Below are positions 1,367-1,581 of a stretch of DNA of 4,727 nucleotides, piece by piece. The notes beneath the pieces were generated by a model. The model had not been told where the DNA came from. It made no database searches and worked only from the letters and a program-made list of their open reading frames with translations. The DNA lies in the NCBI RefSeq assembly GCF_011045215.1, contig NZ_CP049203.1, one strand, 5' to 3'. The stretch comes from Escherichia coli. GTDB taxonomy: Bacteria > Pseudomonadota > Gammaproteobacteria > Enterobacterales > Enterobacteriaceae. The position numbers and the translations under genes are program-made. The stretch's first letter is position 1. Every line of letters begins with the position of its first letter.

Positions 1367-1581
1367 GCAGCACCGTAACGGTGCCTGCCTCACAGTGCTG
1401 GATCCAGCACCGCAGCACCGTAAGCAGCACCGTAAAGGGAAAATCCAGCCACAATCCAGCACCATAACAGGCACCGTTACAGTGCCTGTTGTTGATTAAC
1501 ACCATGATTAATAAGGATTAGCACTGTAGCAGTGCCGGTTACAGTGCTTGATCCAGCCACAATCCGGCACCGTTGCGGTGC
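1367..1581. repeat. Array of GCAC-N7-GTGC palindromes and direct repeats
   Basis: GCAC-N7-GTGC occurs at 1370-1384, 1471-1485, 1521-1535 and 1567-1581. GTGCTGGATCCAGCAC is a perfect 16-bp palindrome at 1395-1410. GCAGCACCGTAA occurs three times (1367-1378, then in tandem at 1412-1423 and 1424-1435). A 21-bp repeat atccagccacaatccRgcacc occurs at 1443-1463 and 1551-1571. gttacagtgc occurs at 1476-1485 and 1538-1547. Confidence 0.85.

What the first reader, a model, noticed from the sequence alone, without database searches (positions are those of the whole stretch)
1367..1581. Unexplained array of GCAC-N7-GTGC palindromes and iterated GCAGCACCGTAA next to cer
Seen: there are four 15-bp sites of the form GCAC(C/T)GT(A/T)(A/G)C(G/A)GTGC, at 1370, 1471, 1521 and 1567. 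There is one perfect 16-bp palindrome of reversed polarity (GTGCTGGATCCAGCAC, 1395-1410). GCAGCACCGTAA occurs three times, two of them in exact tandem. A 21-bp repeat differing at one base occurs at 1443-1463 and 1551-1571. An AT-rich centre with gattaa/gattaa/gattag lies at 1494-1521. No ORF explains any of this. Inference: several readings are possible. (a) Operator or centromere-like sites for a dimeric DNA-binding protein, supplied in trans or the 81-aa protein. (b) Hairpins acting as single-strand initiation (priming) signals or single-strand promoters after conjugative entry. (c) Extra accessory architecture for Xer recombination. I do not recognise the motif as a known operator.
Basis: seen in the sequence. 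Interest (0 to 1): 0.58.

Follow-up and report, generated by a model that had tools for sequence, protein, structure and literature searches.

The report
Orphan F-like transfer origin (oriT)
The "unexplained" palindrome array is the accessory-protein (TraM/IHF) landing pad of an F-plasmid-type origin of conjugative transfer that this small ColE1-like plasmid carries without any transfer genes, so it can probably hitch a ride on a co-resident F-like conjugative plasmid: a known strategy, here with a previously uncharacterised oriT variant.

Summary

It is not an orphan motif array. Window ~1392-1680 is homologous (84-98%) to the traM / SLT-transglycosylase (gene X) intergenic region of nine F-like (MOBF/MPF_F) conjugative plasmids. 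That region is the position of oriT.

Just right of the finding lie an exact IHF consensus (1626-1638) and a hairpin (1654-1670). Nine nucleotides further is a nic motif, GACAGGTGT|GGTG (nic T1679|G1680). F has the same geometry: hairpin, 9 nt, GTGGGGTGT|GGTGC.

The GCAC/GTGC boxes form three clusters at F-like distances from nic, mostly 11-12 bp apart. They run 40-60 per kb here against 0-1.8 per kb elsewhere, and they are better conserved than their spacers. They are most likely binding sites for a divergent TraM allele (28% identical to F TraM).

The window encodes no TraM, TraY or relaxase. This makes it an oriT-only hitchhiker plasmid, as shown experimentally for pSe-Kan and pKPN2. The kind is known; the member and its predicted TraM motif are new. 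No binding or transfer was tested here.

One wrinkle remains: the nic-proximal bases differ from those of co-resident helpers.

The parts
1116..1145 (-). cer XerC/XerD core site. This is context: it marks the left neighbour of the module, and the cer accessory sequences run to about 1340.
   Evidence: The sequence is the reverse complement of the ColE1 cer core GGTGCGTACAATTAAGGGATTATGGTAAAT (my own knowledge). Homology with all related small plasmids begins at 1115-1116.
1367..1435 (.). TraM-box cluster I, the positional equivalent of F sbmA/sbmB. It holds GCACCGTAACGGTGC (1370-1384), GTGCTGGATCCAGCAC (1395-1410) and 2 x GCAGCACCGTAA (1412-1435). Relative to its relatives the window lacks 33 bp, carrying two more boxes, after about 1419.
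   Evidence: Searches give the repeats. Alignments show homology from about 1392. In the conjugative plasmids the boxes run to within about 30 bp of the traM start codon. The centre lies 278 bp from nic; F sbmA is at 236.5 and sbmB at 197.5.
1443..1463 (+). Copy 1 of the 21-bp repeat ATCCAGCCACAATCCAGCACC. It flanks cluster II. Copy 2 (1551-1571) occupies the same position relative to the last box pair of cluster III.
   Evidence: family D4 (95% identity). Both copies are conserved in the conjugative oriTs.
1459..1490 (.). TraM-box cluster II: GCACCATAACAGGCACCGTTACAGTGCCTGTT.
   Evidence: It is nearly invariant in the 8-sequence alignment. E. albertii pESA135_1 carries one extra 12-bp unit here. 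The centre lies 204.5 bp from nic.
1491..1520 (-). AT-rich spacer with a 12/13 IHF-like site (AATCATGGTGTTA, 1497-1509, minus strand). It is the positional equivalent of F ihfB.
   Evidence: one mismatch; not significant on its own. The ATGATTAATAA core is conserved. The function is inferred from position only.
1521..1581 (.). TraM-box cluster III, the positional equivalent of F sbmC, which is the site needed for transfer. It holds GCACTGTAGCAGTGC (1521-1535), GTTACAGTGC (1538-1547) and GCACCGTTGCGGTGC (1567-1581).
   Evidence: The centre lies 128 bp from nic; F sbmC is at 115.5 bp.
1582..1625 (.). Stretch between cluster III and the IHF site, where F has its TraY site (sbyA). The assignment as a putative TraY-binding region rests on position only.
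   Evidence: Conserved, including the TTTGCCA core. No TraY motif was tested.
1626..1638 (-). Exact IHF consensus AATCAGTGCATTA, the positional equivalent of F ihfA.
   Evidence: It is the only exact WATCARNNNNTTR match in the window. About 0.3 are expected from mononucleotide shuffles. It lies 47 bp from nic and its core is conserved across the family.
1654..1670 (+). nic-proximal hairpin GCAAAAC-GCA-GTTTTGC.
   Evidence: One search finds a 7-pair stem. It is invariant or near-invariant in all 14 oriTs. The F counterpart, GCAAAAAC-TT-GTTTTTGC, increases relaxase affinity and catalyses the joining reaction (PMC3074121).
1671..1683 (+). Relaxase (TraI) recognition bases and the predicted nic: GACAGGTGT|GGTG, cut between T1679 and G1680 on the + strand.
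   Evidence: Aligns with F GTGGGGTGT|GGTGC, 9 nt after the hairpin in both. GTGTG is invariant in the family. The cut itself was not tested.
1684..1740 (+). Post-nic part of the oriT module, the first DNA to enter a recipient. Homology to the conjugative plasmids is weaker here.
   Evidence: One search shows shared blocks (TCAGAGAAGGG, CCGGG..GGGCATT). 37% of columns vary among the small plasmids here, against 7-14% before nic.

Best explanation
Window ~1360-1740 is a complete but orphan origin of conjugative transfer (oriT) of the F-like (MOBF12/MPF_F) type. The reported interval 1367-1581 is its accessory-protein half.

That half consists of three clusters of GCAC(C/T)GT-type boxes. In a cell that also holds a cognate F-like conjugative plasmid, tetramers of that plasmid's ribbon-helix-helix protein TraM would bind these boxes. 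An AT-rich IHF bend site separates the clusters. To the right lie a probable TraY site, an exact IHF site, a hairpin and the nic site (T1679|G1680, + strand).

Proposed sequence of events:
1. IHF and TraY bend the DNA.
2. The helper's TraI relaxase nicks the + strand.
3. TraM bound to the array couples the relaxosome to the coupling protein TraD.
4. The + strand is transferred 5'->3', starting at G1680. The array and cer therefore enter last.
5. The hairpin plus nic region terminates transfer by rejoining.

The small plasmid encodes none of these proteins, so it is mobilised 'relaxase in trans'.

What is shown: homology, synteny, nic/hairpin geometry, and box enrichment, phasing and conservation. 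What is inferred: that TraM, rather than another oriT protein, binds the boxes; that the site is nicked; and that the plasmid is mobilised.
For: (1) Homology and synteny. Window 1340-1620 hits 72 plasmids, 44 of them conjugative. In nine MOBF/MPF_F-type plasmids the match lies exactly between traM and the SLT-transglycosylase gene, which is the F oriT position (F itself). In E. coli complete genomes all 39 matches are on plasmids. For the conjugative plasmids the alignment runs over window 1415-1680.

(2) nic geometry. The window has hairpin GCAAAAC-GCA-GTTTTGC, then 9 nt, then GACAGGTGT|GGTG. F has GCAAAAAC-TT-GTTTTTGC followed by GTGGGGTGT|GGTGC (PMC3074121 Table 1).

(3) Architecture. Distances from nic in the window are: hairpin 17, cluster III 128, cluster II 204.5 and cluster I 278 bp. 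In F they are: hairpin 18, sbmC 115.5, sbmB 197.5 and sbmA 236.5 bp. F sbmA and sbmB overlap the traM promoter and sbmC lies within oriT (PMC7555446). In the conjugative relatives the boxes likewise run up to the traM start.

(4) Box properties.
- The 7-mer GCACYRY or its complement occurs at 40-60 per kb in the sbm part of five oriTs. It occurs at 0-1.8 per kb in about 80 kb of flanking or tra DNA, and only once in F oriT.
- Nine of 13 neighbour spacings are 11 or 12 bp. TraM tetramers contact motifs 12 bp apart with inverted-repeat symmetry (PMC3159463).
- Indels between family members are 12 bp and 33 bp.
- GCAC/GTGC columns are 94% conserved against 80% for other columns (permutation p <= 1e-4). 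They persist in the Citrobacter oriT, whose spacers have diverged.

(5) A matching protein exists. All these plasmids encode a 131-aa Pfam Tra_M protein (E = 1e-37). The copies are 98% identical among the six close relatives, 74% identical in Citrobacter with the same N-terminal strand MPRQNVY, and only 28% identical to F TraM. This fits boxes that are related to, but distinct from, the F motif A(G/C)CG(G/C)T.

(6) The window has no TraM, TraY or relaxase.

(7) Experimental precedent. The ColE-like plasmids pSe-Kan and pKPN2 carry an oriT(F) between the replication region and cer, lack mob genes, and are mobilised by F (PMC9282650). 'pOriT' plasmids are common in E. coli (PMC10123127).

(8) Ecology. 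In four strains a small plasmid carrying this oriT co-resides with a conjugative plasmid of the same oriT family.
Against: - No binding, nicking or mating was tested, so the assignment of the boxes to TraM rests on position, phasing and analogy.
- All five small plasmids examined have the nic-proximal bases ACAGGTGT|GGT. The four co-resident conjugative plasmids have TGATGTGT|GAGG. The TraI relaxase-domain allele co-varies with this difference in a 2 + 2 sample. In F against R100, a 2-base change in this stretch strongly lowers TraI affinity and cleavage (PMC3074121). The helpers actually seen beside these plasmids may therefore nick them poorly.
- Among the small plasmids alone, the boxes are not significantly better conserved than the spacers (8.9% against 13.7% variable columns, p = 0.49).
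- Three E. coli genomes hold the small plasmid with no detectable conjugative plasmid of this oriT family.
- The IHF assignments are weak statistically.
- The permutation test ignores the relatedness of the sequences and the adjacency of columns.
Confidence: 0.85

Rival explanations
1. The module is a decayed, non-functional remnant of an F-like oriT. It would have been picked up by recombination next to cer and be carried passively. The boxes would still be derived from TraM sites, but would do nothing for this plasmid.
For: The small plasmids' nic-proximal bases differ from those of co-resident helpers. The window has lost 33 bp with two boxes. A truncated copy (cer plus array up to 1559, no nic) sits in large plasmids such as JNU p1. 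Box-versus-spacer conservation among the small plasmids is not significant.
Against: The hairpin, the 9-nt spacer, the GTGT|G nic, the exact IHF site and all three box clusters are intact in five different small-plasmid backbones that are only 82-98% identical here. The pre-nic oriT is far better conserved (7-14% variable columns) than the DNA just beyond it (37%). The ACAGGTGT variant is a natural nic variant of conjugative plasmids with their own TraI allele. Analogous plasmids are experimentally mobilisable.
Confidence: 0.09
2. The array is an operator or centromere-like site for a protein of the small plasmid itself, such as the 81-aa ORF at 1981-2226. It would resemble the 11-bp iterons of R1 parC that are bound by the ribbon-helix-helix protein ParR.
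For: The sites are iterated and helically phased at 11-12 bp. The 81-aa ORF is conserved in other small plasmids.
Against: The same array sits between traM and the SLT gene in nine conjugative plasmids. The 81-aa ORF was not among the genes annotated around the array in any of those nine. The sister plasmid pRHB06-C19_4 keeps the array but has a ProQ/FinO gene in the 81-aa slot. The 81-aa protein has no DNA-binding family match. The window has no partition ATPase.
Confidence: 0.02
3. The palindromes act as single-strand hairpins, either as priming (ssi) signals or as single-strand promoters used after entry into the recipient.
For: As single-stranded DNA the region folds much better than shuffles do (-56.3 kcal/mol, z = -7.5).
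Against: Any array of inverted repeats gives such a z-score. With nic at 1679|1680 and 5'->3' transfer of the + strand, the array is the last DNA to enter. Known single-strand promoters and ssi signals of F-like plasmids lie in the leading region (established knowledge). The homologous F region is a double-strand TraM/IHF binding region.
Confidence: 0.02
4. The array is extra accessory architecture for Xer recombination at cer.
For: It lies about 25 bp beyond the expected end of the cer accessory sequences.
Against: In the conjugative plasmids the array occurs without cer. In the relatives the homology block that begins at the cer core also contains other, exchangeable modules. cer function needs only about 180 bp of ArgR/PepA accessory DNA (established knowledge).
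Confidence: 0.01

Closest known systems
oriT of plasmid F (and R1/R100): nic, ihfA, sbyA, sbmC, ihfB, sbmB, sbmA, then traM
   Same: - The position in the parental plasmids is the same, between traM and gene X (the SLT gene).
- The hairpin is followed by 9 nt and then GTGT|GG.
- The order and the distances of the protein-site clusters from nic match.
- The inverted-repeat boxes are phased at 11-12 bp.
- The box core partly resembles F (F sbmA/B GCACCGC and AGCAGCACC; here GCACCGT and AGCAGCACC).
   Different: - Overall sequence is not alignable to F outside the nic and hairpin. The 7-mer box occurs once in F oriT against 12-16 times here.
- The cognate TraM is only 28% identical to F TraM.
- The TraI recognition bases differ (GACAGGTGT against GTGGGGTGT).
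- In the window the traM promoter and gene are gone, and the promoter-proximal site has become a perfect palindrome.
oriT(F)-bearing, mob-less ColE-like plasmids pSe-Kan and pKPN2 ('relaxase in trans'); the pOriT plasmids of Ares-Arroyo et al.
   Same: It is a small ColE1-type replicon. An F-type oriT lies between the replication region and cer. There are no relaxase or accessory genes. It depends on a conjugative helper (PMC9282650; PMC10123127).
   Different: Those plasmids carry an oriT about 90% identical to F itself and were shown to be mobilised by F. This one carries a different F-like oriT family (GCAC boxes, different TraM and TraI alleles), and its mobilisation is untested. MOB-suite, as given by PLSDB, types many carriers of this array as 'non-mobilizable'.
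pED208 (IncFV) TraM-sbmA complex (PDB 3ON0)
   Same: It is the best solved-structure match of the cognate TraM (E = 4.6e-6, full length). In that complex two tetramers bind staggered motifs, each tetramer contacting motifs 12 bp apart. This is the likely binding mode here.
   Different: pED208 TraM recognises GANTC. By my reading of the sequence, the oriT module has a single GANTC (GATTC at about 1638-1642) and the boxes are GCAC(C/T)GT-like.
pCERC7/NTP16-type small plasmids and pBuzz (orphan or multiple oriTs next to a multimer resolution site)
   Same: Exchangeable modules lie adjacent to cer. The oriT is borrowed from conjugative plasmids. More than one oriT can sit on one small plasmid.
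   Different: Those plasmids use I-complex or B/O-type (MOBP) oriTs with a NikA accessory gene. Here the module in question is MOBF-type, and the plasmid encodes no accessory protein for it.

Membership tests
F-like (MOBF12) oriT | Homologous to, and in the parental plasmids located in, the traM / gene X (SLT transglycosylase) intergenic region of an MPF_F conjugative plasmid | tested here: met
   Nine plasmids show traM, then the match, then the SLT gene. Identity is 77-98% over window 1392/1415-1620, and 84-88% over 1415-1680 in the conjugative E. coli plasmids.
F-like (MOBF12) oriT | nic region: an inverted repeat followed by the TraI recognition sequence ending ...GTGT|GG | tested here: met
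   The window has GCAAAAC-GCA-GTTTTGC, then GACAGGTGT|GGTG (1654-1683). F has GCAAAAACTTGTTTTTGC, then GTGGGGTGT|GGT. The 9-nt spacing is the same.
F-like (MOBF12) oriT | Multiple TraM binding sites (sbm): inverted-repeat motifs about 12 bp apart, two clusters near the traM promoter and one nearer nic | tested here: met
   This was tested in silico only. There are three clusters at F-like distances. Spacing is 11-12 bp. The boxes are enriched 30-100 fold and are 94% conserved against 80% for other columns. Protein binding was not tested.
F-like (MOBF12) oriT | IHF sites flanking the TraY and TraM sites | tested here: inconclusive
   There is one exact consensus at 1626-1638 in the ihfA position, and one 12/13 site at 1497-1509 in the ihfB position. 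With one mismatch allowed, the count in the window is no higher than chance (8 found against 9.05 expected).
F-like (MOBF12) oriT | TraY binding site (sbyA) between ihfA and sbmC | not tested
   Only a conserved stretch at 1582-1625 in the right position. No TraY motif for this clade is known to me.
F-like (MOBF12) oriT | Strand- and site-specific cleavage by the cognate TraI, and TraM/TraD-dependent transfer | not testable with these tools
   This needs nicking and mating assays.
pOriT / relaxase-in-trans mobilisable plasmid | Carries an oriT but no relaxase, coupling protein or mating-pair genes | tested here: met
   The largest ORF is 279 aa, a phage-lysozyme-domain protein. No ORF tested has a relaxase, TraM or TraY match. 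Caveat: I cannot prove that the 4727-bp window is the whole replicon.
pOriT / relaxase-in-trans mobilisable plasmid | Co-occurs with a helper that carries the same oriT family | tested here: inconclusive
   Co-residence was seen in four strains. The helper nic variant differs there, and three E. coli genomes hold the small plasmid alone. The window's own host is unknown.
R1 parC-type centromere / plasmid-own operator | Cognate adaptor or repressor gene, with a partition ATPase, encoded beside the repeats | tested here: not met
   The window has no such genes. The array travels without the 81-aa ORF.

The most novel reading that the evidence does not exclude
The array may be more than a passive copy of helper sites. 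It may be an adapted 'TraM sponge plus hybrid oriT'.

On a multicopy ColE1-type replicon, about 14 high-affinity boxes per copy would titrate the helper's autoregulated TraM. This would change helper traM expression and let the small plasmid compete for TraD docking.

The small-plasmid lineage has also combined the box region of one helper lineage (98% identical to pRHB15-C07_3) with the nic variant of another TraI allele (ACAGGTGT). It has turned the former traM-promoter site into a perfect palindrome. These changes might broaden or bias which F-like helpers it can exploit, at the helpers' expense.
Probability: 0.15. Interest if true: 0.55.

Novelty: new member of a known kind. Interest (0 to 1): 0.3.

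Why it matters
**Mobility typing.** The finding explains a conspicuous, annotation-free repeat array, and it re-labels a family of small plasmids. MOB-suite, as given by PLSDB, types 17 of the 72 plasmids that carry the array as 'non-mobilizable'. This includes the window's two closest relatives, pRHB06-C19_4 and E. marmotae unnamed3. They are probably mobilisable by a particular clade of F-like plasmids, so homology-to-reference oriT searches miss this family.

**A testable motif.** The work gives a concrete recognition motif, GCAC(C/T)GT boxes at 11-12 bp phasing, for a TraM allele only 28% identical to F TraM.

**Natural specificity variants.** It also provides a natural pair of TraI-allele and nic variants (Q193/L201 with TGATGTGT; K193/R201 with A(C/T)AGGTGT). 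These are useful for studying relaxosome specificity.

**Wider context.** Between cer and rom the same plasmid stacks at least three further orphan oriT-like modules of MOBP types. This illustrates how small plasmids collect transfer origins to exploit several helpers. None of this is conceptually new.

Tried and rejected
- **Rfam.** At gathering thresholds it found nothing in the whole window, so no known RNA explains the region.
- **ORFs.** Those overlapping the array and the other large mechanical ORFs have no Pfam family. The 81-aa ORF has no Pfam or NCBIfam family and does not co-travel with the array. It is rejected as the binder.
- **Promoter scan.** A scan of 1100-1800 found no sigma-70-like site within the array. 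The traM promoter of the parental plasmids is evidently not retained.
- **Single-strand DNA folding.** It gives z = -7.5. This is uninformative, because any inverted-repeat array does the same.
- **IHF consensus counting.** With one mismatch the count is at chance level. Only the position and conservation of the two sites argue for them.
- **Homology ending at nic.** I first thought homology with the conjugative plasmids stopped exactly at nic (BLAST end at 1680). That would have suggested relaxase-mediated capture. The MAFFT alignment shows weaker homology continuing for about 60 bp, so I dropped the claim.
- **Box conservation among the small plasmids alone.** The test lacked power (p = 0.49).
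- **The match in JNU p1.** It looked like a second genomic context. It proved to be a fragment of a small plasmid, cer plus the left part of the array.
- **'Five Shades of F'.** The paper does not mention pSE11-2 or oriT, so I could not place the helper clade in its groups. These helpers do encode FinO.
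Full report
**1. Observation**

The window is a small ColE1-like plasmid or part of one. It holds:
- a Rop gene at 2892-3086 (Pfam Rop, E = 3.5e-31);
- a phage-lysozyme-domain bacteriocin-like ORF at 59-811 on the minus strand;
- the reverse complement of the cer XerC/XerD core at 1116-1145 (sequence; the core sequence is from my own knowledge).

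- The degenerate 15-mer GCACYGTWRCRGTGC occurs at 1370, 1471, 1521 and 1567, against 0.01 matches expected.
- The 16-bp palindrome is at 1395-1410.
- GCAGCACCGTAA is at 1367, 1412 and 1424.
- GATTAA, GATTAA and GATTAG are at 1494, 1506 and 1516.
- The 21-bp repeat is family D4.

More generally, 14 GCAC/GTGC tetramers lie in 1360-1590, nine times the density of the rest of the window. Nine of the 13 neighbour spacings are 11 or 12 bp.

**2. What it is**

A BLAST of 1340-1620 against 72,556 plasmids found 72 records. Forty-four of them are large conjugative MOBF/MPF_F plasmids, and none of the 40 records listed has an annotated feature under the match.

In every conjugative plasmid I opened, the match lies between traM and the divergent SLT-transglycosylase gene. 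The nine plasmids are:
- pSE11-2;
- pRHB15-C07_3;
- Salmonella Milwaukee pIncFII.2;
- Citrobacter TSA-1 unnamed1;
- E. albertii pESA135_1;
- RHB16-SO-C05 unnamed1;
- pRHB19-C13_2;
- pRHB06-C19_3;
- E. marmotae RHB35-E2-C08 unnamed1.

That intergenic region is where plasmid F has its oriT. These plasmids encode a full F-type transfer system, including TraD, TraI, TraX and FinO.

Alignments show the window to be almost identical to the pRHB15-C07_3 oriT from about 1392 to 1671, apart from a 33-bp gap.

**3. The part outside the finding clinches it**

To the right of the reported interval the family shares three features.
- An exact IHF consensus lies at 1626-1638. It is the only exact match in the window.
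- A hairpin GCAAAAC-GCA-GTTTTGC lies at 1654-1670.
- Nine nucleotides later comes GTGT|G.

In F the corresponding sequence is GCAAAAACTTGTTTTTGC followed by GTGGGGTGT and then the nick, with GGTGCTTTT on the 3' side. There the hairpin raises relaxase affinity and catalyses the joining reaction (PMC3074121 Table 1 and text; F sequence).

The window reads GCAAAACGCAGTTTTGC-GACAGGTGT|GGTGACAG. This predicts nicking of the + strand between T1679 and G1680.

The orientation agrees with the synteny. The leading-region side (the SLT gene in the conjugative plasmids) is to the right and traM is to the left. The array would therefore be the last DNA transferred.

**4. What the array itself does**

[quoted passage not shown] TraM tetramers recognise motifs 12 bp apart with inverted-repeat symmetry. 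The motif is allele-specific: A(G/C)CG(G/C)T for F and GANTC for pED208 (PMC3159463).

Five lines of evidence fit TraM sites here.

*Layout.* The window's boxes form three clusters. I placed the F sbm sites from the repeats in the F sequence together with the literature description.

| Element | Window (bp from nic) | F (bp from nic) |
|---|---|---|
| Hairpin | 17 | 18 |
| Cluster III / sbmC | 128 | 115.5 |
| Cluster II / sbmB | 204.5 | 197.5 |
| Cluster I / sbmA | 278 | 236.5 |

In the conjugative relatives the boxes run to within about 30 bp of the traM start codon, as expected for autoregulatory sites.

*Enrichment.* The 7-mer box occurs at 40-60 per kb in the sbm part of five family members. 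It occurs at 0-1.8 per kb in the surrounding tra and leading-region DNA, and only once in F oriT.

*Conservation.* Box columns are 94% conserved against 80% for the other columns. They persist in the divergent Citrobacter oriT.

*Indels.* Length differences between members are 12 bp and 33 bp. The window's 'exact tandem' GCAGCACCGTAA is the product of the 33-bp difference.

*A matching protein.* The cognate protein is a 131-aa Pfam Tra_M member. It is 98% identical among six plasmids, 74% identical in Citrobacter with the same N-terminal strand, and 28% identical to F TraM. Its best solved relative is pED208 TraM.

I therefore assign the boxes to this TraM allele with about 0.8 confidence. The AT-rich centre with the GATTA repeats is in the ihfB position and holds a 12/13 IHF site. 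That assignment is positional only.

**5. Why a small plasmid has it**

The window has no TraM, TraY or relaxase gene. The same cer-plus-oriT block is shared by a family of small ColE1-like plasmids. Their homology to the window starts exactly at the cer core.

The concept is established:
- pSe-Kan and pKPN2 carry an F-type oriT between the replication region and cer, lack mob genes, and are mobilised by F 'relaxase in trans' (PMC9282650).
- oriT-only plasmids are abundant in E. coli (PMC10123127).

In four strains a small plasmid with this oriT co-resides with a conjugative plasmid of the same oriT family. The family is rare: 36 of 5426 complete E. coli genomes carry it, always on plasmids.

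**6. Wrinkles**

- *nic variant.* All five small plasmids have ACAGGTGT|GGT before and after the nick. The four co-resident helpers have TGATGTGT|GAGG.
- *TraI allele.* The two nic variants go with two TraI relaxase-domain alleles, which differ in a swapped segment of about residues 99-222. That segment includes the positions aligned with F Q193 and R201. pRHB15-C07_3 and pSE11-2 have Q/L with TGAT. Milwaukee pIncFII.2 and RHB16-SO-C05 have K/R with ACAG or ATAG.
- *Basis for specificity.* That residues 193 and 201 set F versus R100 specificity is from my memory of Harley and Schildbach 2003. That two base changes here cripple F TraI binding and cleavage is in PMC3074121.
- *Consequence.* The small-plasmid oriT is a hybrid: the box region is closest to one helper lineage and the nic variant belongs to another. 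The best helper is uncertain.
- *Selection.* Among the small plasmids alone, boxes are not significantly better conserved than spacers. However, the pre-nic oriT (7-14% variable columns) is much better conserved than the DNA just after it (37%).
- *Control.* The permutation test does not correct for phylogeny.

**7.

- (a) Partly right: the binder is a trans-supplied protein, but it is TraM, not the 81-aa ORF.
- (b) and (c) Not supported. The reasons are given under the rival explanations.

**8. Novelty**

The kind is known: an F-like oriT, and an orphan oriT on a small ColE1-type plasmid. What appears new is the member.
- This oriT family has GCAC-type boxes and its own TraM and TraI alleles.
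- I found no characterised member in the papers I searched and read.
- The mobility typing given by PLSDB labels 17 of the 72 carriers 'non-mobilizable'.

I could not query oriTDB, so 'uncharacterised' is provisional.

**9. Surroundings**

Between the F-like module and rom the window holds further orphan oriT-like modules.
- *1833-1861.* A 20-bp palindrome is followed by ATGTCCTG|C. Window 1838-1881 is 95.5% identical to a 44-bp stretch of the traJ-traK intergenic region of the MOBP/MPF_T plasmid pYDC107_41.
- *2323-2374 and 2445-2498.* Each is an inverted repeat followed by CATATCCTG|TCCCG. They are about 80-83% identical to the region just upstream of the mobA/nikA-like and relaxase genes of MOBP/MPF_I plasmids.

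Ares-Arroyo et al. report that about 12% of oriT-bearing E. coli plasmids have more than one oriT, with up to five. A stack of four orphan oriTs on a replicon of less than 5 kb is therefore notable but not unprecedented.

Noticed in passing
window 1833-1881: A second orphan oriT-like module. The 20-bp palindrome GTAAAGTTAGCTAACTTTAC is followed by ATGTCCTG|CCCGG. Window 1838-1881 is 95.5% identical to a 44-bp stretch of the traJ-traK intergenic region (the IncP-type oriT position) of the MOBP/MPF_T plasmid pYDC107_41. The nick position is inferred only by analogy with RP4 ATCCTG|C, which I recall from memory.
   Followed up: partly
window 2323-2374 and 2445-2498: Two further oriT-like modules. 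Each is a long inverted repeat followed by (A)CATATCCTG|TCCCG. They are about 80-83% identical to the DNA just upstream of the mobA/nikA-like and relaxase genes in MOBP/MPF_I conjugative plasmids. They hit 353 conjugative records, mostly Klebsiella and Serratia. The plasmid therefore stacks at least four orphan oriTs of three conjugation families between cer and rom.
   Followed up: partly
window 2633-2667 and 2817-2851: Two more strong inverted repeats: GTGCGTCACTTTG..CAAAGTGACGCAC, and GTGACGTCACCTGGT..ACCAGGTGACGCAC. Both end in GTGACGCAC followed by A. They could be additional oriT or relaxase-hairpin-like elements.
   Followed up: no
window 1981-2226 (- strand), compared with L008 1189-1563: The 81-aa ORF is a conserved hypothetical protein of small ColRNAI-type plasmids, mainly Klebsiella, at about 50% identity. 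It has no family match. In the sister plasmid pRHB06-C19_4 the same slot, with conserved flanks, holds a 124-aa ProQ/FinO-family gene instead. This looks like an exchangeable gene cassette between oriT modules.
   Followed up: partly
window 1671-1683; loci L005, L001, L006, L011, L018, L019, L023, L024: Two nic-proximal variants (TGATGTGT and A(C/T)AGGTGT) co-vary with two mosaic TraI relaxase-domain alleles. These alleles differ in residues of about 99-222, including the positions aligned with F Q193 and R201. All the small plasmids carry the ACAG variant, while their co-resident helpers carry TGAT.
   Followed up: partly
window ~1419/1420: The window and the E. marmotae 11.8-kb plasmid lack a 33-bp stretch with two GCAC boxes. 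That stretch is present in the other small plasmids and in all the conjugative oriTs. The loss is what creates the 'exact tandem' GCAGCACCGTAA.
   Followed up: yes
L002 4777-5253 (E. coli JNU p1), also H123-H126: Several large IncF plasmids contain cer plus the left part of the array (window 1116-1559) but no nic. This appears to be a fragment of such a small plasmid inserted near a ProQ/FinO gene.
   Followed up: partly
window 59-811 (-) and 4204-4683 (-): The cargo looks like a bacteriocin with a C-terminal phage/T4-lysozyme domain (Pfam Phage_lysozyme, E = 1e-9). This is pesticin-like by my own recollection. There is also a 159-aa ORF with no family match that could be its immunity protein.
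   Followed up: no
whole window: Rfam at gathering thresholds reported no RNA family at all, not even RNAI. Yet a Rop gene and a ColE1-like origin region are present.
   Followed up: no
window 1626-1700; hits H127-H143: A further set of 2.8-12 kb E. coli plasmids (many from O111) matches only the IHF, hairpin and nic part (about 85% identity) and not the box array. This suggests other small plasmids with related F-like nic regions but different accessory-site regions.
   Followed up: no
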